Virus record (IMG/VR): IMGVR_UViG_2778261267_000002
Source: a virus
Taxonomy: Duplodnaviria; Heunggongvirae; Uroviricota; Caudoviricetes
Reading direction: 5' to 3' (one strand)
DNA length: 39,741 bases
Each line of letters starts with the position of its first letter. Position 1 is the first letter of the stretch. Positions 1 through 39,741 of this stretch are shown piece by piece. The translations under genes and the position numbers were made by a program. Under the pieces are notes generated by a model. That model was given only the letters and a program-made list of their open reading frames with translations. It was not told the origin of the DNA and searched no databases.

Positions 1-1248
1 ATGGCACTGAATATTCCATTCAGAAATGCGTACTATCGTTTTGCATCCAGTTACTCATTTCTCTTTTTTATTTCCTGGTCGCTGTGGTGGTCGTTATACG
101 CTATTTGGCTGAAAGGACATCTAGGGTTGACAGGGACGGAATTAGGTACACTTTATTCGGTCAACCAGTTTACCAGCATTCTATTTATGATGTTCTACGG
201 CATCGTTCAGGATAAACTCGGTCTGAAGAAACCGCTCATCTGGTGTATGAGTTTTATCCTGGTCTTGACCGGACCGTTTATGATTTACGTTTATGAACCG
301 TTACTGCAAAGCAATTTTTCTGTAGGTCTAATTCTGGGTGCGCTCTTTTTTGGCCTGGGGTATCTGGCGGGATGCGGTTTGCTTGACAGCTTCACCGAAA
401 AAATGGCGCGAAATTTTCATTTCGAATATGGAACAGCGCGCGCCTGGGGATCTTTTGGCTATGCTATTGGCGCGTTCTTTGCCGGCATATTCTTTAGTAT
501 CAGTCCCCATATCAACTTCTGGTTGGTCTCGCTATTTGGTGCTGTATTTATGATGATCAACATGCGTTTTAAAGACCAGGATCACCAGTGCGTAGCGGCG
601 GATGCGGGAGGGGTAAAAAAAGAGGATTTTATCGCAGTTTTCAAGGATCGAAACTTCTGGGTTTTCGTCATATTTATTGTGGGGACGTGGTCTTTCTATA
701 ACATTTTTGATCAACAACTTTTTCCTGTCTTTTATGCAGGTTTATTCGAATCACACGATGTAGGAACGCGCCTGTATGGTTATCTCAACTCATTCCAGGT
801 GGTACTCGAAGCGCTGTGCATGGCGATTATTCCGTTCTTTGTGAATCGGGTAGGGCCAAAAAATGCATTACTTATCGGTGTTGTGATTATGGCGTTGCGT
901 ATCCTTTCCTGCGCGCTGTTCGTTAACCCCTGGATTATTTCATTAGTGAAGCTGTTACATGCCATTGAGGTTCCACTTTGTGTCATATCCGTCTTCAAAT
1001 ACAGCGTGGCAAACTTTGATAAGCGCCTGTCGTCGACGATCTTTCTGATTGGTTTTCAAATTGCCAGTTCGCTTGGGATTGTGCTGCTTTCAACGCCGAC
1101 TGGGATACTCTTTGACCACGCAGGCTACCAGACAGTTTTCTTCGCAATTTCGGGTATTGTCTGCCTGATGTTGCTATTTGGCATTTTCTTCCTGAGTAAA
1201 AAACGCGAGCAAATAGTTATGGAAACGCCTGTACCTTCAGCAATATAG
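1..1248 (+). CDS. cscB: Sucrose:H+ symporter, LacY-family (oligosaccharide:H+ symporter) MFS permease; host gene flanking the prophage
   Basis: 415-aa ORF, polytopic hydrophobic profile, collinear similarity to LacY/CscB recalled from memory (e.g. GLKKPLIW, FEYGTARAWGSFGYA motifs); typical ~50% GC. Confidence 0.8.
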   Translation: MALNIPFRNAYYRFASSYSFLFFISWSLWWSLYAIWLKGHLGLTGTELGTLYSVNQFTSILFMMFYGIVQDKLGLKKPLIWCMSFILVLTGPFMIYVYEPLLQSNFSVGLILGALFFGLGYLAGCGLLDSFTEKMARNFHFEYGTARAWGSFGYAIGAFFAGIFFSISPHINFWLVSLFGAVFMMINMRFKDQDHQCVAADAGGVKKEDFIAVFKDRNFWVFVIFIVGTWSFYNIFDQQLFPVFYAGLFESHDVGTRLYGYLNSFQVVLEALCMAIIPFFVNRVGPKNALLIGVVIMALRILSCALFVNPWIISLVKLLHAIEVPLCVISVFKYSVANFDKRLSSTIFLIGFQIASSLGIVLLSTPTGILFDHAGYQTVFFAISGIVCLMLLFGIFFLSKKREQIVMETPVPSAI

Positions 1249-6486: not shown

Positions 6487-6855
6487 TCAGGCGGCTTTGA
6501 TAGTCATATCATCTGAATCAAATATTCCTGATGTATCGATATCGGTAATTCTTATTCCTTCGCTACCATCCATTGGAGGCCATCCTTCCTGACCATTTCC
6601 ATCATTCCAGTCGAACTCACACATAACACCATATGCATTTAAGTCGCTTGAAATTGCTATAAGCAGAGCATGTTGCGCCAGCATGATTAATACAGCATTT
6701 AATACAGAGCCGTGTTTATTGAGTCGGTATTCAGAGTCTGACCAGAAATTATTAATCTGGTGAAGTTTTTCCTCTGTCATTACGTCATGGTCGATTTCAA
6801 TTTCTATTGATGCTTTCCAGTCGTAATCAATGATGTATTTTTTGATGTTTGACAT
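6487..6855 (-). CDS. Acidic hypothetical protein (122 aa)
   Basis: Clean ORF with strong Asp/Glu bias; sits in the ral/ea position between N-proximal terminator and cIII. Confidence 0.5.
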   Translation of the reverse strand: MSNIKKYIIDYDWKASIEIEIDHDVMTEEKLHQINNFWSDSEYRLNKHGSVLNAVLIMLAQHALLIAISSDLNAYGVMCEFDWNDGNGQEGWPPMDGSEGIRITDIDTSGIFDSDDMTIKAA

Positions 6856-32571: not shown

Positions 32572-34568
32572 TGGCTAAAGCATGGAAAGATGTTATCGCC
32601 TCTCCACAGTATCAGGCGTTAGCACCAGAACAAAAAGCGCAGGCTCAGGAGCAATACTTCAATGAAGTCGTGGCCCCGCAAGCCGGAGAAAATGCAGAGC
32701 AGGCTAAGCAAGCTTTCTATGCTGCCTATCCATTGCCATTTGTGCAGTCAGTGGAGACACAGCAACCAGTAGCACAGCAACAACCACAGCAAAGTGGATT
32801 TATGTCTGATCTTGGCGAAGCAGTAAAAGAGACTGGTCGCGGAATGGTGCAGGCTGGCGTGAACGTGGCAAACATACCTGCATCAGTTGCCGATGCTGTA
32901 ACAAGCGCGGCGGCTTGGGCTGGCGGTAAACTCGGTATTGGCGATGGTACATATCAACCAGCACCACGAGTAACAACGCAGGGATTAGAGCAGGACTTTG
33001 GCCTTCAGCAAGGTGCGCTGACTCCACAAACGACAGAGGGAAAGGTATTTGCTGAAGCATTGCCTTACCTCACTCCTGCTGGCGTTGAGAGAGCGGCAGC
33101 ACAGGCACCAACACTTGCTGGGCGAATTGCTCAGGGGGCAACTCGTCTTCTCGCTGAAAACGCAGTTGGATCACTTGCTGCAAATAGTGCGAAAGATGAT
33201 GCGGAAGCACTCGCCACCGATTTAGGCGTTGGTGTGCTGGCTGGCGGTGCTATTAACGCTGCCGGACGTGGATTAGGTGCTGCTTATCGTGGCGTTCGTG
33301 GTGCTATTGCGCCAGAAGCGCAGCAGGCTATCAGATTTGCAGAGCGTGAAGGAGTTCCTCTGCACACCACAGACCTGTTACAGCCTACTTCCCGCGTCGG
33401 GAAAATGGCGCAGACGACAGCGGAAAATATCCCCCTGGCCGGCACAAGCGGAATGAGAGCAACGCAACAGGAAGCGAGAAGCCAGTTGGTGCAGAGATTT
33501 GCTGATAAATTCGGTGAGTATGATCCAGCTGTTGTTATTGACAGCCTTAAAGCGAAAACATCAGGAATTCGTCGTGCTGCAGGTAATCGACTGGAGCAGG
33601 TTCAGAATGCTATGGCAGGAGTAAACATTCAGCCTGCACGAGCAATTCAGCAGATTGATACAGAAATATCTAACCTGCAGAAGCTTGGTAAGGTCGCTGA
33701 TAACGAGACTATTTCAAAACTTCAGTCATATCGTGATGAGCTTGTTCGCAATGCTGGCCCTGATGGTCCGGTAAATCTGGATTTGAAGCAATTAAGCGAC
33801 CTGCGCAGCCAGTTCAGAATGGACGTGAAGGGGGAGCGACCAGTGTTACCAAACCGTTCCGATGCCGCCATTCAACGTGTTTACAAGGCGATGACCGACG
33901 ATATCAATGGTGCCATTGGTCAGAATCTTGGCAACGATACTCTCCGTAAATATCAGCAGGCCAATGCCGTCTACGCTGACGAAGCGGCGAAACTAAAGAA
34001 TACCAGGCTGAAGAATGTTCTCATGAAAGGCGACCTGACGCCGGAAGTTGTCAACAACATGCTATTCAGCAAGAACAAATCGGAAATTAAGACGCTGTAT
34101 AACTCAGTTGGTCGTGTTGGCAGGGCGCAAATGCGCAATGGCATCATTGGAAAGGCGATGGAGAAATCTGGCGGATCACCTGACCAGTTCCTTCGGCAGC
34201 TTAACATCCTGCAAAACCAGACTGGCATCACATTTAAAGGTCAGGAAGCCGCTTATCTGAAAGGATTGAAAAACTACCTGCAATCCACGCAGCAGGCTGC
34301 AAAAGCGGCAGTAACAACACCAACAGGGCAGCAAACCATCCCGTTCATTATCGGATATGGTACGGCAATGAACCCGGCGACAACTGGCGCAGCGGTAAGC
34401 TACGGACTTCTTACTCGCGCCTATGAGAGCGAGCCATTCAGAAATGCAATGCTCCGAATGGCAAATACCCCACGCGGATCAACAGCGTTCGAGAAAGCCA
34501 TGCAGCAGGCACAAAAGGCCATTAACGCCCTGACTCAGGGGGCTAAGTCTGATGCGTTGTCAGAATAG
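32571..34568 (+). CDS. Ejection protein, P22 gp16-like position
   Basis: Synteny and size (665 aa); Ala/Gly/Gln-rich. Confidence 0.6.
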   Translation: MAKAWKDVIASPQYQALAPEQKAQAQEQYFNEVVAPQAGENAEQAKQAFYAAYPLPFVQSVETQQPVAQQQPQQSGFMSDLGEAVKETGRGMVQAGVNVANIPASVADAVTSAAAWAGGKLGIGDGTYQPAPRVTTQGLEQDFGLQQGALTPQTTEGKVFAEALPYLTPAGVERAAAQAPTLAGRIAQGATRLLAENAVGSLAANSAKDDAEALATDLGVGVLAGGAINAAGRGLGAAYRGVRGAIAPEAQQAIRFAEREGVPLHTTDLLQPTSRVGKMAQTTAENIPLAGTSGMRATQQEARSQLVQRFADKFGEYDPAVVIDSLKAKTSGIRRAAGNRLEQVQNAMAGVNIQPARAIQQIDTEISNLQKLGKVADNETISKLQSYRDELVRNAGPDGPVNLDLKQLSDLRSQFRMDVKGERPVLPNRSDAAIQRVYKAMTDDINGAIGQNLGNDTLRKYQQANAVYADEAAKLKNTRLKNVLMKGDLTPEVVNNMLFSKNKSEIKTLYNSVGRVGRAQMRNGIIGKAMEKSGGSPDQFLRQLNILQNQTGITFKGQEAAYLKGLKNYLQSTQQAAKAAVTTPTGQQTIPFIIGYGTAMNPATTGAAVSYGLLTRAYESEPFRNAMLRMANTPRGSTAFEKAMQQAQKAINALTQGAKSDALSE

Positions 34569-34732
34569 CTTCGCAAACACCAGGAACGTGCAAAAACCAA
34601 ATATGTAGAACGCAATATTCAACAGATCTTTTTGCATAGACTCATCTCATAGTTAACAAATCATAACTTACATTAATGCAATGTAGGGCAAGTTGCATCT
34701 TGTTCGGCGTTGCTACGTCAGGAGCAAATTAA

Positions 34733-36838
34733 ATGACAGACATTACAGCCAATGTTGTAGTGAGTATGCCTTCGCAACTCTTCACTATGGCGCGTTCTTT
34801 TAAAGCCGTAGCCAATGGCAAAATTTATATCGGTAAAATTGATGCTGACCCGGTAAATCCTGAAAACCAGATTCAGGTTTATGTAGAGAACGAAGACGGA
34901 TCTCACATTCCTGTTTCGCAACCAATCATTATCAATTCTGCTGGTTACCCTGTATATAACGGACAGATTGCCAAGTTTGTTACGGTGCAAGGTCATTCTA
35001 TGGCTGTTTATGATGCGTATGGTGCACAGCAGTTCTATTTTCCAAACGTGCTGAAGTATGATCCTGATCAGCTAAGGCAGAGTCTAACAAAATATGGCTC
35101 AACAATTGATCAGATAGCGCATCGGGCGACAGCCATTAAAACATTTGAAGAGTTTGGGGCAATTGGTGATGGGATTGTTGACGACACCACATCTATGTTA
35201 TCAGCATTAGCATGGCTCGAAGGAATACCTTTTGGTAAATTAACAGGGAGAGTAGGTGCGAGATATCGCATAACACAAAGTCTTGTAATGAAGTTCGATG
35301 GCTCGTATACACAGGATGTTACATCTACACGGTATATTGATTTTACTGGTACAACAATCGTAGCAGGAGACTCGGGAATTACATGTTTAAGAATGAGCCA
35401 TGATTTCTGCCACATAATCAATCCTGTAGTAATTAACCCAGATAACTACTCTGACGTTATTGCCTACGCCATTGCTCCTGAAGACGAATCTCAGGCAACC
35501 ATGCGTGTGTCACAGCAATTTTGTGTAATGGAGAATCCACGCGCAAGGGGAGTAAAAGTCGGACTGAAATTCAAGCCGGGACCAACAGTATCAGGTGAAA
35601 ACAGCGGCTCATACTACCACTCAATTATGAACCCTAACTTTGAGCGTGTAGACTGCGGGTTTTATTTTGAACGCAGCGTCAGTGGCGATAATAATAATAC
35701 GCGCATCCATATATATAACCCTCATCATGCTACGGGAAATTGTAGCTTTTGGATTGAGTCTACCGACACTTTGCGCGTATTTGGTGGTCACGCTGAGAAT
35801 ATCACTCTAGGTACTTGGCCTGCAGACGTGCCATGCGCAGTGCGTATTGTTAAGACGGTGAACAGTGATACATCAGTGGCAGGTAATATACACTTCCGTG
35901 GATTTTTTGGCGAGTTGTGTACGCGTCCGTATCAGATTGATTTTAATGTGAAAACCTATGAAAACCACTTTGACTGGTCATGGGTGTATCTAACTGAGAA
36001 CGCACAGCGTCAAGGTGCTAACAGTTATGAAAGCATATCCCAGTTTGACGGGGTTCTTGTTAGCTCAAATATGGACCCAGACCAGAAAAACGTTACTGGA
36101 TGCCGTAGGCGTTCTAGTGGTAAAGGGGCGCTTATTATTCAGCCTGACGACTCATCTCCGGCCGAGCTTTATTCTGACACAAAATGGAAAATTACCTCAT
36201 CTGTACTAGAGGCTCCTGTTCAGGACTTACGCAACGATAATAGTGAAATACAGATTCTTGGTGCCACTAATTCAGGTATCCTGCTCACTACGACTACTGG
36301 TACAAAGGGGGTAACATTATCGAGTTATGACGGTAAATTGTCACCAGGAAACCCAAGCGGCGACTTTAAGATTGGCGGGTACAATGGATTCATGCCTGAT
36401 GCAGACAATACGACTGTATTAGGATATACATCACATAGATGGTCTGTTGTGTATGCTGCCACGGGCACAATAAGCACATCGGATGAAACACTGAAGGTAA
36501 AAACCCCGGCAACAAACGAGAGTGCGGAAAGGGAAGCGGCTAATGAAATTCGCAAGAATATTATTCGTTATAAGTTTGCTGATGCCATAGAACTTAAGGG
36601 AGAAGAGTCTGCACGTGTCCACTTTGGTGTTGGTGCGCAAACTGTTGGTTCTATCCTGACAAAGCACGGACTTAAACCAGAGGATTACGCATTCTGGTGC
36701 AAGGACGAGTGGGAAGAATCTTCTGAAATAAGCATTAATCCAGAAACGTTAGAAGAAGTTGTAACAGTTAAACCAGCGGGCGTAAGGTACGGAATACGCT
36801 ATGATGAGCTTATTATGTTCTTAGCAATGTATGCGTAA
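34733..36838 (+). CDS. Tailspike: P22-like N-terminal head-binding domain, distinct receptor-binding domain, C-terminal intramolecular chaperone (peptidase S74-like) domain
   Basis: First ~110 aa [58 protein letters not shown] match P22 gp9; C-terminus has SDETLK and [13 protein letters not shown] / [15 protein letters not shown] motifs. Confidence 0.85.
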
Positions 36839-36859
36839 ATTGCATAGTTATGGCGTTAC

Positions 36860-38002
36860 ATGTACAATGCTGCAAATTTTTTTGGGGTTATTAACATGAA
36901 CGCCTTTTTGCTTTTTATTGCAGTAATTGGTGTAATTATAGATTTAGCATCTCCGTTGACAGTTTATGGTGTACAACTATTCCTATTTCCATTCGCATGC
37001 CTTTTTTTATACGCAAAAAGTGTAAGTAAAATGACGTATCAGTCATTATTATTTATAATAATGGTGGTATCTATTGTTATAATAAGTTCATTTATCCAAG
37101 TTTATATATCAAAGCATAATGAGATATTATTATCACAGACGCTTAAAGTAATAATTTGGGTGGTGTCGTCATACTTGTTATATGTTGGATGTAAGGGGGT
37201 GGATAAAGATACTTTAGAGAGATCCATAAATGCAGCGCTAGTAGTTTTCATGCTCTCTTTATTTATTCAAGTAGTATCGAAGCTTTTATTTGGTTCTATT
37301 GTTGACTACTCTATGCTAATTGGTGGCGAACCATCAAGAAATATGATGACTGGAGTTGGGTTTAGGCCAACAGGGCTAACTGCAGAACCAAGTGTATATT
37401 GCGGAATAACAGCGTGGTTAATTACGTTACGATATGCAATTAATAAAAAGATTGATTATTTGTTTTTACTGTCATGCGTTTCAATGACGTTTACATTGTC
37501 ATTTGTTGGAATATTTCTTTGCTTTCTCATGCTATGTGTTGGTATGATGAGAATTAAGATGATTATCCCAGTGATAGCAATATTTGTGATTGGGTATCTT
37601 TCTGTTTTAAATATTGTAAATGACAGGATTGTTTTATTTCTATCTGGGGCTGATGGTAGCAATAATATAAAGATAGAGACCATTCTTGATTTTATTGGAA
37701 ATCAAAATTTATATATTTTTGGTTATGGTTTGATTGGTAAGTCAGAATCTGCGCCATCATTTTATGAGTCGTTATATGATATGACTATATTTGGAAACTT
37801 TATTACAATATTTGGTCTTCCATTTGGAGTATTATGCATAGTATTATATTGTGTTTTTATAATTAAAATTAAAATAACAAAAAGGGCAAAGCTAATGATG
37901 TTGCTATCATCTTTAAAAATTAGCCTGCCGTTTTTTGCTGTGTTTTATATGGCTATTGCTATGATATGTGCAATTTCAAATAAGAACAAAGCGTTAACGT
38001 AA
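36860..38002 (+). CDS. AT-rich polytopic inner-membrane protein (~10 TM), possible Wzy-like polysaccharide polymerase / O-antigen modification protein (alternative start 36896)
   Basis: Highly hydrophobic 380-aa ORF at ~30% GC with a hydrophilic loop containing R and G residues; sits in the tailspike-int slot. Confidence 0.6.
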   Translation: MYNAANFFGVINMNAFLLFIAVIGVIIDLASPLTVYGVQLFLFPFACLFLYAKSVSKMTYQSLLFIIMVVSIVIISSFIQVYISKHNEILLSQTLKVIIWVVSSYLLYVGCKGVDKDTLERSINAALVVFMLSLFIQVVSKLLFGSIVDYSMLIGGEPSRNMMTGVGFRPTGLTAEPSVYCGITAWLITLRYAINKKIDYLFLLSCVSMTFTLSFVGIFLCFLMLCVGMMRIKMIIPVIAIFVIGYLSVLNIVNDRIVLFLSGADGSNNIKIETILDFIGNQNLYIFGYGLIGKSESAPSFYESLYDMTIFGNFITIFGLPFGVLCIVLYCVFIIKIKITKRAKLMMLLSSLKISLPFFAVFYMAIAMICAISNKNKALT

Positions 38003-38302
38003 CAACTTGCACATAATAATATCTCTTTTTTTAGTTTCTGGTGATTGTATTGTTATACTATAATCACCAGAATAAAACTCAGTTAAAGTGAATTTTTCTT
38101 TATCAATAGATATATAATCAAGAGAACGAGCCTCGTTAAAAAATTCTTTTTCAAGGCTAAATTCTACATCATCTAGATGCACTTTGGACGCATTTGATGT
38201 GTTAACTTTAACAAGATGAGAACCACATACTATTTCATTTATCTTTGCGCTTGATGAATTACTAACCATAAAGGTAAGTATAAAAAACAAGTATTTAAAC
38301 AT
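37994..38302 (-). CDS. Small secreted protein (102 aa, signal peptide), AT-rich
   Basis: N-terminus MFKYLFFILTFMVSNSSSA; convergent with the membrane protein gene, overlapping by 9 nt. Confidence 0.45.
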   Translation of the reverse strand: MFKYLFFILTFMVSNSSSAKINEIVCGSHLVKVNTSNASKVHLDDVEFSLEKEFFNEARSLDYISIDKEKFTLTEFYSGDYSITIQSPETKKRDIIMCKLLR

Positions 38303-38583
38303 ATATCACCATCTTTGAAAAATATTCTACAAATAGTAGCATGAACATCATGCTAATTAAAGAAAGATTGCAAAACCATTTGCCATTTGTCAAGCACTTA
38401 GGTGATAAATGTATGGGGTTGTGATGTTTATATTTTAGTAAGTTCGTGATCATATAATTATTTACATGTAATGATATGTACCACATCAGGTGGTAGTATT
38501 TGTATCCACTTGAGGCAAAACTGAGAAACGCAAAGCTTTGTACTGGATTGCAAGGCTTTATGTCATTCGATAGTTAAGGTGGA

Positions 38584-39741
38584 TCACTCCACCTTCCCAT
38601 CAAGCCAGTCCGCCCACCACTGCATCATTTCTCTGCGCTTATCGAGATACTGAGCATGGTTGTAAATCCCGCGCACAGATCCGCCGTTGGCATGTGCCAG
38701 TTGCACCTCAATCGCGTCAGCAGGCCATTCGTGCTCGTTCATAATCGTGCTGAATTCATGCCTGAATCCGTGACCGCTTTCCAGACCTTCATAGCCGATT
38801 TGTTTGATCACAAGTAATACCGCGTTCTCGCAGATTGGCTTCTTCTTATCGTTGCGCCCGGCAAAAACAAACTCTGACACTGGTTTAGTGATTGAGCTTA
38901 GCGTAGTGAGAAGTTCAACCACCTGGTCTGACATAGGAACCACATGAATTTTGCGACCCTTCATCACACTGGCGTCGATGGTGATAATCCTGTTTTCAAA
39001 ATCGACGTTCTTCCATTGCATGGAACGAAGCTCTTTTGTTCTTAGGGCTGTGTAGCGTAAAACCTTGGTGGCAATGAGCGATACGATACTTCCTGAAAAT
39101 GTTGCCAGTGCTTTGTTGAATGCCGGGATCTGGTCTGCAGGAAGAAACGGGAAGTTCTTCTTGCGGTATCCCTTCATGGCGTCAGCAAGATCAGGTGCCG
39201 GGTTATATTTAGCCCTTCCGGTGACAATAGCGTAACGGAAAACCTCGCCGCATCTTCTGCGGGCTTTGTTGGCTCGCTCCATTGCACCGCGATCTTCAAA
39301 TCTGCGGATTACTTCCAGCAGTTGCATCGGCTCAATATCCTGAATTTCAAGACCGCCGATGATGGGTAAAATGTCGTCATCAAACATTTTGGCAAGTTCA
39401 GTTGCATAGCCTACTGACCAGACTTGCTTCTTGTGCTCGTACCATTCCTTGTAAATGGCACTAAAGGAATTGTTGTTAGACGAAGCCTTTTTCGCTTTTA
39501 CCGGATCGATGCCAACCGAGATGTCTTTCCTCGCGGTCCATGCTTTATCTCTTGCCTCCTGCAAAGTCATTAGCGGATATTTTCCTACGGTCAGGATTTT
39601 CTCCTTACCGTCAATCTTGTAGCGAAGCTGCCATACCTTTTTCCCTGACACAGGGACATAAAGGTACAGGCCATTACCATCGAGAAGGCGGTATGGTTTC
39701 TCTTTCGGCTTTGCTGCTTCAATCTGCTTAACGGTGAGCAT
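38584..39741 (-). CDS. intS: Tyrosine integrase, P4/IntS type (385 aa); start codon is the last three bases of the window
   Basis: Full-length ORF with tyrosine-recombinase catalytic signature (R...H-x-x-R...Y); matches KplE1/CPS-53 IntS as recalled. Confidence 0.85.
   Translation of the reverse strand: MLTVKQIEAAKPKEKPYRLLDGNGLYLYVPVSGKKVWQLRYKIDGKEKILTVGKYPLMTLQEARDKAWTARKDISVGIDPVKAKKASSNNNSFSAIYKEWYEHKKQVWSVGYATELAKMFDDDILPIIGGLEIQDIEPMQLLEVIRRFEDRGAMERANKARRRCGEVFRYAIVTGRAKYNPAPDLADAMKGYRKKNFPFLPADQIPAFNKALATFSGSIVSLIATKVLRYTALRTKELRSMQWKNVDFENRIITIDASVMKGRKIHVVPMSDQVVELLTTLSSITKPVSEFVFAGRNDKKKPICENAVLLVIKQIGYEGLESGHGFRHEFSTIMNEHEWPADAIEVQLAHANGGSVRGIYNHAQYLDKRREMMQWWADWLDGKVE

What the first reader, a model, noticed from the sequence alone, without database searches (positions are those of the whole stretch)
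34733..36838. Three-part chimeric tailspike with a self-cleaving chaperone-type C-terminus
Residues 1-110 match the P22 gp9 head-binding domain, then similarity to P22 stops. The C-terminal ~119 residues carry SDETLK and G-x-x-AQ / Y-x-x-L-x-x-L-x-x-A motifs typical of intramolecular chaperone (peptidase S74) domains of endosialidase and T5-type fibres. The central ~470 residues are an unassigned receptor-binding or depolymerase domain, so host glycan specificity is unknown.
Basis: partly seen in the sequence, partly recalled or inferred. Interest (0 to 1): 0.55.

Follow-up and report, generated by a model that had tools for sequence, protein, structure and literature searches.

The report
Prophage tailspike with self-cleaving chaperone end
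This is the host-recognition spike of a P22-like prophage of E. coli, built from swappable parts: a P22-type attachment end, a sugar-cutting beta-helix found only in O166-type strains, and a well-known self-removing folding helper; it is a new member of a known kind.

Summary
ORF 34733..36838 (+) encodes a 701-aa tailspike.

- Residues 1-113 are a P22 gp9-type head-binding domain (Pfam PF09008, E 5e-66).
- Residues 583-701 are an intramolecular-chaperone (peptidase S74) domain. Ser583 and Lys588 align with the catalytic dyad of K1F endosialidase and T5 pb1, and both are invariant in 30 homologs.

The architecture is not new. The P22-like phage CUS-3 carries the same head-binding domain and chaperone around an endosialidase. 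The whole cassette 114-700 is 81% identical, without gaps, to a tail spike of the Kuttervirus Salmonella phage SS9.

What I add:
- The receptor-binding DNA occurs at near full length in only 4 of 5,426 complete E. coli genomes. All four are among the 18 that carry O166 wzx/wzy, so the O166 O-antigen is the likely receptor.
- The next gene (36896..38002) has a WaaL/Wzy-type fold. It is 58% identical to an off-cluster "O-antigen polymerase" of Salmonella bongori, whose O166-like cluster lacks wzy. This suggests a lysogenic-conversion polymerase.

Verdict: a real feature, correctly read, and a new member of a known kind. Cleavage and substrate are still inferred.

The parts
34733..36838 (+). Tailspike gene, 701 aa (77.3 kDa precursor)
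   Evidence: ORF and translation. The identical protein is on record in GCA_002486075.1 and three Logan assemblies, always after the P22-type ejection-protein genes gp7/gp20/gp16 and before the integrase at argW.
34733..35071 (+). Residues 1-113: P22 gp9-type head-binding (tail-attachment) domain
   Evidence: PF09008 E 5.3e-66. Matches Sf6 gp14 7sg7 at E 1e-63 and P22 gp9 structures over residues 1-118. About 90-94% nt identity to more than 1,100 E. coli prophage tailspike 5' ends.
35072..35131 (+). Residues 114-133: junction and helical neck, the module-exchange boundary
   Evidence: P22-like tailspikes match only nt 1-339..358 of the gene, and Kuttervirus TSPs match from nt 352. The SS9 alignment starts at residue 114. 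The model predicts helices here at low confidence.
35132..36142 (+). Residues ~134-470: right-handed parallel beta-helix, the putative O-antigen depolymerase and receptor-binding domain
35915..36112 (+). Residues ~395-460: hypervariable patch inside the receptor-binding region
   Evidence: Sliding identity falls to 40-56% here against homologs that are 86-100% identical on both sides (P0002, P0006, P0017). The model is at low confidence for residues 416-448.
36143..36478 (+). Residues ~471-582: stalk leading to the cleavage site
   Evidence: Beta strands in the model. Residues 550-582 match the last 33 positions of the endosialidase stalk profile PF12219 (E 0.006) and the phi92 endosialidase 4hiz. 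Identity to the O166:H15 prophage allele falls to 40-60% from about residue 485 onward.
36479..36835 (+). Residues 583-701: C-terminal intramolecular chaperone (peptidase S74) domain, predicted 13.4-kDa released fragment
   Evidence: phmmer against solved chaperone domains. Foldseek hits to 4uw8, 3gw6 and 3gud. Full-length homologs P0022 and P0033 pass the PF13884 gathering score. 485 phage records carry a related module, including K1F gp17 with its annotated CTD.
36479..36496 (+). SDETLK: Ser583 (36479..36481) and Lys588 (36494..36496), the predicted catalytic dyad and scissile site
   Evidence: Coordinates checked. S583, D584 and K588 are invariant in 30 homologs down to 34% identity. They align with 'TADARLK' of 4uw8 and 'TANGERK' of 3gw6. 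From memory, those constructs are Ser-to-Ala mutants.
36896..38002 (+). Neighbouring gene, not part of the spike: 368-aa (380 from the upstream ATG at 36860) polytopic membrane protein, a putative phage-borne Wzy-type O-antigen polymerase
37994..38302 (-). 102-aa ORF with a signal-peptide-like N-terminus, function unknown, conserved beside the polymerase-like gene
   Evidence: ORF listed. An ORF of the same size and position is annotated in the O166:H15 and OZ197100 prophages. No family hits.
38584..39741 (-). IntS-type tyrosine integrase marking the prophage end at argW
   Evidence: Pfam Phage_integrase, Phage_int_M and Arm-DNA-bind_3. tRNA-Arg and yfdC follow in related genomes.

Best explanation
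The gene encodes the tailspike of a P22-like temperate phage integrated at argW in E. coli.

How it most likely works:
1. Three chains associate. The C-terminal 119-residue intramolecular chaperone (peptidase S74 type) nucleates trimerisation and folding of the stalk and beta-helix.
2. The chaperone then removes itself by Ser583/Lys588-catalysed cleavage immediately before Ser583. This leaves a 582-residue (63.9 kDa) mature spike and a 13.4 kDa fragment.
3. The N-terminal gp9-type domain (1-113) plugs the mature trimer onto the P22-type tail.
4. The beta-helix (about 134-470) binds and most likely hydrolyses the host O-antigen, predicted to be E. coli O166, so that the virion can reach the outer membrane.

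The protein is a mosaic. The adaptor comes from the P22-like lineage. The cassette 114-701 is shared with myovirus (Kuttervirus) and other tail spikes that carry a TSP1/gp66-type adaptor. The stalk plus chaperone is exchanged separately again.

Shown here: domain identities, fold, conserved dyad, mosaic junctions and the O166 association. Inferred: cleavage, trimer dependence, enzymatic activity and chemistry.
For: Head-binding domain: PF09008 E 5e-66, solved Sf6 and P22 head-binding domains align to residues 1-118, and the gene sits in a P22-type virion module.

Chaperone domain:
- Sequence matches to solved domains: 7y5s 1.8e-23, 9vvr 1.1e-21, 4uw8 1.9e-15, 3gw6 9.4e-11, 3gud 1.4e-8, with the SDETLK Ser and Lys aligned to their catalytic positions.
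- S583, D584, K588, H630, G632, A635 and Q636 are invariant in 30 homologs.
- Foldseek recovers 4uw8, 3gw6 and 3gud.
- Homologs P0022 and P0033 exceed the Pfam S74 cut-off.
- The module occurs in 485 phage records, including K1F gp17 with its annotated cleaved CTD.

Precedent: the CUS-3 tailspike has Head_binding 1-113 and Peptidase_S74 818-878 and aligns with this protein at both ends.

O166 link:
- The receptor-binding DNA is found in 5 of 5,426 complete E. coli genomes. The 4 with at least 94% coverage are all among the 18 with O166 wzx/wzy. The hypergeometric P is 8.5e-11, uncorrected for relatedness.
- These carriers hold two spike alleles and three wzx-wzy identity classes, so they are not one clone.

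Mosaicism.
Against: - The protein itself scores 20.2 bits on Pfam S74, below the 22-bit cut-off.
- No proteolysis data exist for this protein or its close homologs.
- The stalk and cleavage region are poorly modelled as a monomer, with pLDDT below 50 for residues about 548-587.
- The beta-helix has no close solved relative (at most 15% identity) and no Pfam catalytic-family hit. The active site and chemistry (hydrolase, lyase or binding only) are therefore unassigned.
- The serogroup of the window's own host could not be determined.
- The O166 association rests on four genomes.
- The adjacent putative polymerase may alter the lysogen's O-antigen, so the true substrate could be a variant of O166.
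Confidence: 0.78

Rival explanations
1. The C-terminal domain assists folding or trimerisation but is retained in the mature spike, or serves as a distal binding domain. There would be no autoproteolysis.
For: The Pfam S74 score is slightly sub-threshold. No cleavage data exist. The classical P22-family tailspikes (P22, Sf6, HK620) keep their C-terminal trimerisation domains (established knowledge).
Against: The Ser-x4-Lys dyad is intact, aligned to the catalytic residues of endoNF and T5 pb1, and invariant across 30 homologs down to 34% identity. That degree of conservation is hard to explain without catalysis. The CUS-3 and K1F relatives carry annotated processed forms.
Confidence: 0.1
2. 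The beta-helix targets a glycan other than the O166 O-antigen, such as a capsule, colanic acid or ECA. The O166 co-occurrence would then reflect prophage inheritance within a few lineages.
For: There are only four informative genomes. The best PHROG family is labelled 'colanic acid degradation'. Kuttervirus homologs come from Salmonella and O157 phages. A degraded partial copy sits in the non-O166 strain MLI104K2.
Against: The PHROG match covers only residues 1-186, which is the adaptor and neck and not the enzyme. The four carriers have two spike alleles and three wzx-wzy sequence classes. The spike is linked to an O-antigen-polymerase-like gene, and that gene's nearest outside relative sits in S. 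bongori, which has an O166-like cluster. By the title of Liu et al. 2010 (cited in PMC10370184), Salmonella O66 is closely related to O166, which gives a plausible substrate for the homologous spikes of Salmonella Kutterviruses.
Confidence: 0.17
3. The central domain is a polysaccharide lyase, an epimerase-like enzyme or a non-catalytic lectin rather than an endoglycosidase.
Confidence: 0.15
4. The gene is a decaying remnant in a defective prophage and makes no functional spike.
For: Relatives are clearly decaying. 608-aa alleles are interrupted 9 codons after Ser583 by an IS end. The OZ197100 copy is truncated at its 5' end next to an IS3.
Against: The window ORF is full length, and all conserved residues are intact and collinear with the SS9 phage protein without gaps. 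The same intact protein is found on six contigs from independent samples. The upstream virion genes are intact.
Confidence: 0.05

Closest known systems
Endosialidase tailspike of the P22-like phage CUS-3 (siaK1, ABQ88383)
   Same: The overall design is the same: a P22 gp9-type head-binding domain at 1-113, then an enzymatic receptor-destroying domain, then a stalk, then a Peptidase_S74 chaperone with the T-S-D-x-x-L-K site. Identity is 77% over residues 1-160 and 33% over 555-700 (E 4e-20). The position in the prophage, next to the integrase and a surface-polysaccharide conversion gene, is also the same.
   Different: In CUS-3 the central part is a beta-propeller sialidase for the K1 capsule. 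Here it is a pectin-lyase-like beta-helix with no sequence similarity to it. The predicted substrate here is an O-antigen.
Tail spike (TSP1 position, TSP1/gp66-type N-terminus) of Kuttervirus phages SS9, SS3, SeKF_64 and PhaxI
   Same: The cassette 114-700 is 81% identical and gapless to SS9 YP_009883287, including SDETLK, with 77.6% nt identity. It is the same beta-helix, stalk and chaperone.
   Different: The N-terminal adaptor is different (PF18668 against PF09008) and the virion type is different (Ackermannviridae myovirus). The host of this TSP subtype was not assigned in the parts of the Ackermannviridae subtype survey I could read (PMC8432352). The PhaxI copy is annotated as a truncated 474-aa CDS.
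C-terminal intramolecular chaperone domains of K1F endoNF (3gw6), T5 pb1 (4uw8), GA-1 gp12 (3gud) and Kp7 gp51 (7y5s)
   Same: There is sequence homology, an aligned Ser/Lys dyad, the HxGxxAQ core, and a position at the extreme C-terminus after a trimeric stalk. Autoproteolytic release after folding is described for these proteins (PMC4690869 abstract; PMC8217332).
   Different: The passenger domains differ. Cleavage has not been shown for this protein.
Classical P22-family tailspikes (P22 gp9, Sf6 gp14, HK620 gp9)
   Same: They share the head-binding domain, a right-handed beta-helix that acts on the O-antigen, and the same gene position.
   Different: Those spikes end in a retained trimerisation domain and have no S74 module (established knowledge). 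There is no sequence similarity beyond residue about 118.
[quoted passage not shown] 2008, cited in PMC8217332)
   Same: It shows the same phenomenon: one receptor-binding cassette shared between P22-like podoviruses and Kuttervirus myoviruses behind different adaptors.
   Different: It is a different cassette (P22-type endorhamnosidase) without an S74 chaperone.

Membership tests
P22 gp9-type head-binding domain (Pfam PF09008) | Profile match above the curated cut-off over the whole domain | tested here: met
   220.4 bits against a cut-off of 24, residues 1-113 matching profile positions 1-113 of 113.
P22 gp9-type head-binding domain (Pfam PF09008) | Homology to solved head-binding domains, and location in a P22-type tail/ejection gene module | tested here: met
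   Sf6 7sg7 E 1e-63 and P22 2vky, 1lkt and others. Upstream genes are P22 gp7, gp20 (Inj_translocase) and gp16 types.
P22 gp9-type head-binding domain (Pfam PF09008) | Physical docking of the trimer on the gp4/gp10 tail hub | not testable with these tools
   This needs virion cryo-EM or a binding assay.
Peptidase S74 / C-terminal intramolecular chaperone domain | Pfam PF13884 match at or above the gathering score | tested here: not met
   20.2 bits against 22 for this protein. Full-length homologs P0022 (27.0 bits) and P0033 (41.1 bits) do pass, as does CUS-3 (40.8 bits). The shortfall is marginal and applies to this subfamily's sequence, not to the family relationship.
Peptidase S74 / C-terminal intramolecular chaperone domain | Sequence homology to experimentally solved chaperone domains | tested here: met
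   7y5s 1.8e-23, 9vvr 1.1e-21, 4uw8 1.9e-15, 3gw6 9.4e-11, 6eu4 9.4e-10, 3gud 1.4e-8.
Peptidase S74 / C-terminal intramolecular chaperone domain | Catalytic Ser and a Lys five residues downstream at the domain boundary, conserved in relatives | tested here: met
   S583 and K588 lie in SDETLK. They align to the equivalent positions of 4uw8 and 3gw6 and are invariant in 30 homologs.
Peptidase S74 / C-terminal intramolecular chaperone domain | Predicted fold resembles solved chaperone domains, at the extreme C-terminus after a stalk | tested here: met
   Foldseek hits: 4uw8 E 2.6e-6, 3gw6 E 2e-5, and 3gud with 41% identity over 87 columns. The last 33 positions of the endosialidase stalk profile match residues 550-582. 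The monomer model of the cleavage region is at low confidence.
Peptidase S74 / C-terminal intramolecular chaperone domain | Trimer-dependent autoproteolysis and release of the domain | not testable with these tools
   This needs SDS-PAGE or MS of wild type against S583A/K588A.
Pectin-lyase-like right-handed beta-helix depolymerases (phage tailspike type) | Right-handed parallel beta-helix fold | tested here: met
Pectin-lyase-like right-handed beta-helix depolymerases (phage tailspike type) | Match to a curated catalytic family profile (for example PF12708) | tested here: not met
   There is no Pfam hit in residues 134-480 of this protein. The close homolog P0001 gives only 17.7 bits against 27.
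Pectin-lyase-like right-handed beta-helix depolymerases (phage tailspike type) | Identified catalytic acid/base residues in a substrate groove, and glycan-degrading activity | tested here: inconclusive
   The invariant carboxylates E250, E342, E355 and D379 are candidates. No trimer model or model coordinates were available to place them. Activity is not testable here.
Wzy/WaaL-type Und-PP-glycan polymerases (neighbouring gene 36896..38002) | Polytopic membrane fold of the WaaL/Wzy/SEDS type | tested here: met
Wzy/WaaL-type Und-PP-glycan polymerases (neighbouring gene 36896..38002) | Match to a Wzy/ligase sequence profile (Wzy_C, O-ag_pol_Wzy, EpsG) | tested here: not met
   There is no Pfam, NCBIfam or PHROG hit and no similarity to the chromosomal O166 Wzy. 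Wzy proteins are notoriously divergent (established knowledge).
Wzy/WaaL-type Und-PP-glycan polymerases (neighbouring gene 36896..38002) | Polymerase activity that changes the inter-repeat linkage | not testable with these tools
   This needs O-antigen structure determination in lysogens against cured strains.

The most novel reading that the evidence does not exclude
The spike and the gene after it form a matched attack-and-disguise pair for the O166/O66 antigen family. The beta-helix would be a previously undescribed O166-specific endoglycosidase. The adjacent phage-borne Wzy-type polymerase would re-link the O166 repeat units in lysogens, giving an O66-like polymer that the spike can no longer cut. 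In this reading, the 'missing' wzy of Salmonella O66, which sits on a degraded mobile island in S. bongori, is a domesticated copy of such a prophage gene.
Probability: 0.35. Interest if true: 0.55.

Novelty: new member of a known kind. Interest (0 to 1): 0.35.

Why it matters
The architecture itself teaches nothing new. Self-cleaving chaperone ends and adaptor swapping are textbook features of phage receptor-binding proteins, and CUS-3 already shows this exact layout in a P22-like phage.

The practical value lies in three places:
- It gives a testable receptor prediction (O166, a serogroup that includes the diarrhoeagenic strains E7476 and the O166:H15 outbreak-type isolates listed). The same prediction extends to an uncharacterised spike family also present in Kuttervirus phages, which could help host-range prediction and spike engineering.
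- It provides a clean example of one receptor-binding cassette moving between podovirus prophages and lytic myoviruses.
- It offers a lead on how the O166 and O66 antigens of E. coli and Salmonella came to differ, through a phage-borne polymerase.

Tried and rejected
1. A scan of species-representative genomes with the O166 GT4 glycosyltransferase, meant to find the Salmonella O66 cluster, returned only distant Shewanella, Acinetobacter and Psychrobacter loci. The question was answered instead through the Wzx protein search and its encoding contig.

2. I tried to learn the serogroup of the window's own host by looking up contigs that encode the O166 flippase fragment P0105. Only an unrelated assembly came back.

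3. The promoter/terminator scan of 34400-38700 gave counts close to shuffled expectation (18 against 15.3; 6 against 2.8) and no convincing signal for separate expression of the conversion genes.

4. The Ackermannviridae TSP-subtype paper (PMC8432352) and its one held supplement do not give the subtype or host of the SS9/SS3/PhaxI homolog. 'O166' together with 'tailspike' finds no relevant prior study. Liu et al. 2010 is not held.

5. Two roughly 39-kb phages with related chaperone modules (H95, H99) were checked as possible further P22-like examples. Both are T7-like Kayfunavirus.

6. The PHROG label 'colanic acid degradation' was rejected as functional evidence because that match covers only residues 1-186.

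7. The 102-aa ORF has no counterpart next to the S. bongori polymerase-like gene, so a conserved two-gene conversion unit across genera is not supported.

8. The lyase reading was considered and judged less likely (see the rival explanations).
Full report
**1. What is there**

The window is the late and right part of a P22-like prophage. The ORF at 34733..36838 (+) is intact and encodes 701 residues. It follows genes for the P22-type tail needle, gp7, gp20 (Inj_translocase) and gp16. After it come a 368/380-aa membrane protein, a 102-aa ORF on the other strand, and an IntS-type integrase. In related genomes the integrase abuts tRNA-Arg (argW) and yfdC. The identical protein is on record in NCBI assembly GCA_002486075.1 and in three assemblies of public sequencing runs, always in this context.

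**2. The observation**

- Pfam Head_binding (PF09008) covers residues 1-113 at E 5.3e-66.
- Solved Sf6 gp14 and P22 gp9 structures align only to residues 1-118.
- SDETLK is at 583-588, with Ser583 encoded at 36479..36481. G-x-x-AQ is at 632-636.
- Pfam Peptidase_S74 matches 583-647 but at 20.2 bits, just under its 22-bit cut-off.

The sub-threshold Pfam score is outweighed by direct matches of residues about 550-699 to solved chaperone-bearing proteins:

| Protein (PDB) | E-value |
|---|---|
| Klebsiella phage Kp7 gp51 (7y5s) | 1.8e-23 |
| 9vvr | 1.1e-21 |
| T5 L-shaped fibre pb1 (4uw8) | 1.9e-15 |
| K1F endosialidase C-terminal domain (3gw6) | 9.4e-11 |
| AS12 gp42 (6eu4) | 9.4e-10 |
| GA-1 neck appendage (3gud) | 1.4e-8 |

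In these alignments 'TSDETLK' lies over 'TADARLK' of 4uw8 and 'TANGERK' of 3gw6. From memory, those crystal constructs carry Ser-to-Ala mutations at the cleavage serine. Full-length homologs of the window protein (P0022, P0033) pass the Pfam cut-off. In an alignment of 30 homologs down to 34% identity, S583, D584, K588, H630, G632, A635 and Q636 never vary.

**3. The middle of the protein**

An AlphaFold2 model of residues 110-701, built on that alignment, gives a confident right-handed beta-helix for residues about 135-410. A low-confidence stretch follows at 416-448, then further beta strands, then a helical and beta-hairpin C-terminal domain. The segment around the cleavage site is poorly modelled, as expected for a monomer model of a trimeric stalk.

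The central domain is therefore a generic tailspike beta-helix without a close solved relative. The invariant carboxylates E250, E342, E355 and D379 are candidate catalytic residues, but I could not place them in a trimer.

**4. Mosaic structure**

- P22-like phages and more than 1,100 E. coli prophages share only nt 1-339..358 of the gene.
- From nt 352 the gene matches tail spikes of Kuttervirus myoviruses at 77.6% nt identity (SS3, SS9, SeKF_64, PhaxI).
- At the protein level SS9 YP_009883287 is 81% identical to residues 114-700 without a single gap.
- In the large protein database the same cassette sits behind a TSP1/gp66-type N-terminus (P0001 at 96% identity; P0002; Citrobacter proteins), behind PF09008 (P0006, P0014), or behind no recognised adaptor.
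- A second breakpoint lies near residue 485. The tailspike of an O166:H15 prophage is about 95-100% identical up to there and only 40-60% identical in the stalk and chaperone, although it keeps an SDESMK site.
- A patch at about 395-460 is hypervariable among otherwise close homologs.

**5. Comparison with what is known**

The head-binding domain plus enzyme plus S74 layout is already documented in the P22-like phage CUS-3. Its endosialidase tailspike has Head_binding at 1-113 and Peptidase_S74 at 818-878, and it aligns with the window protein at both ends but not in the middle.

The chaperone module is widespread. tblastn finds it in 485 phage records, including K1F gp17 (annotated precursor, gp17* and gp17-CTD), K5 lyase and T5-like fibres. 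The literature describes its role as assisting folding followed by autoproteolytic removal (PMC8217332; PMC4690869 abstract).

This protein is therefore a new member of a known kind. Two further candidates for P22-like examples turned out to be T7-like phages.

**6. Likely receptor**

The receptor-binding DNA (window 35100-36150) occurs in only 5 of 5,426 complete E. coli genomes. The four with at least 94% coverage are OZ197100, MLI104K1, E7476 and the O166:H15 strain JNE21-009. All four are among the 18 genomes that carry the O166 wzx-wzy genes. The hypergeometric P is 8.5e-11 if genomes are treated as independent.

They are not a single clone. Two spike alleles (99.8% and 94.6%) and three wzx-wzy identity classes are involved. 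Prophage tailspikes of this family normally act on the O-antigen of the strain type they lysogenise (established knowledge; see also PMC10370184 and PMC10408124). I therefore predict O166 as the substrate, with moderate confidence.

The O166 gene cluster contains only wzx, wzy, four glycosyltransferases and epimerases. This argues for a neutral polymer, and so for hydrolysis rather than beta-elimination (inference).

The serogroup of the window's own host could not be established.

**7. The neighbouring gene**

- The 368-aa membrane protein (36896..38002) has no family hit in Pfam, NCBIfam or PHROGs.
- It lies in a 28-33% GC island.
- It is 99% identical in the O166:H15 prophage.
- It shows no similarity to the chromosomal O166 Wzy.
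- Its family is small, with 15 clusters.
- A 58%-identical member is found in Salmonella bongori, where UniRef calls it an O-antigen polymerase. There it lies away from the O-antigen cluster, on a degraded mobile island beside a transposase, an integrase fragment and an acyltransferase-3 gene.

S. bongori also has an O166-like cluster: galF, wzx (63% identical), GT2, an 874-bp gap with no ORF over 71 aa, GT4, GT, GT, galE, gnd. This is the O166 gene order with wzy missing. It agrees with my recollection of Liu et al. 2010, whose title is cited in PMC10370184. As I recall it, O66 and O166 differ in one linkage and in O-acetylation, and O66 uses a wzy outside the cluster. I could not read that paper.

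The most economical reading is that the prophage carries a Wzy-type polymerase for lysogenic conversion of O166. This would resemble the polymerase-based conversions of Salmonella phage epsilon15 and Pseudomonas phage D3 (my knowledge). It remains a hypothesis.

**8. Mechanism and confidence**

- Shown here: domain identities, fold class, conserved dyad, module boundaries, the CUS-3 precedent and the association with O166 genomes.
- Inferred: trimer-dependent self-cleavage before Ser583 giving 63.9-kDa and 13.4-kDa products, endoglycosidase activity, O166 specificity, and the conversion role of the neighbour.

Natural alleles in which an IS end interrupts the gene nine codons after Ser583, and a copy truncated at its 5' end next to an IS3, show that this prophage lineage also decays. 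The window copy is intact.

**9. Verdict**

The feature is real, well explained by known biology, and of modest interest on its own. The O166 prediction and the adjacent polymerase-like gene add a testable story about phage-driven O-antigen variation.

Noticed in passing
window 36896..38002 (+) (alternative start 36860): A polytopic membrane protein with no family hit but a WaaL/Wzy/SEDS-type predicted fold. It is 99% conserved in the O166:H15 prophage and 58% identical to an off-cluster 'O-antigen polymerase' of S. bongori. It is probably a lysogenic-conversion O-antigen polymerase.
   Followed up: yes
window 37994..38302 (-): A 102-aa ORF with a signal-peptide-like N-terminus (MFKYLFFILTFMVSNSSSA). 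An ORF of the same size and position is annotated next to the polymerase-like gene in E. coli prophages. It has no family hit and no counterpart in the S. bongori island. Its function is unknown; it could be a partner or inhibitor in O-antigen conversion.
   Followed up: partly
window ~36800..38400: A low-GC island (28-33%), compared with 42-45% in the tailspike and about 50% upstream. This is typical of horizontally acquired O-antigen genes.
   Followed up: partly
L030 12062..12936 (S. bongori CP035676): An O166-like O-antigen cluster in which the wzy position is an 874-bp stretch with no ORF above 71 aa. The same strain carries the external polymerase-like gene (P0096).
   Followed up: yes
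L013 ~6777..6841 (GCA_028651475.1); proteins P0004, P0005, P0007: 608-aa tailspike alleles end 9 codons after Ser583, where foreign sequence begins (TAGACTGGCCCCCTGAATC...). From memory this resembles an IS2-type terminal repeat. The contig breaks there. These are natural knock-outs of the chaperone domain.
   Followed up: partly
L003 4773..7679 (E. coli NZ_OZ197100.1): A 99.9%-identical copy of the spike's 3' 80% sits directly beside an IS3 element, with the rest of the prophage gone. The polymerase-like gene there is annotated at only 267 aa, against 368 aa in the window.
   Followed up: no
L001 5515..7739 (phage PhaxI) and L005 (Salmonella phage 38): The PhaxI homolog is annotated as a 474-aa CDS although the DNA match runs about 800 bp further. 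The tail-spike region of phage 38 is split into many short CDSs, with a chaperone module 92.6% identical to the window's. These are probably frameshifts or sequencing errors in the records.
   Followed up: no
window 35915..36112 (residues ~395-460): A hypervariable patch within otherwise 86-100% identical receptor-binding domains. It coincides with a low-confidence loop region of the model and may fine-tune glycan specificity.
   Followed up: partly
E. coli NZ_CP116925.1 (MLI104K2) 1450102..1451134: A fragmentary copy, about 85% identical, of part of the receptor-binding region sits in a genome that lacks O166 wzx/wzy. No feature is annotated under it. It is the only carrier outside the O166 set.
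   Followed up: no
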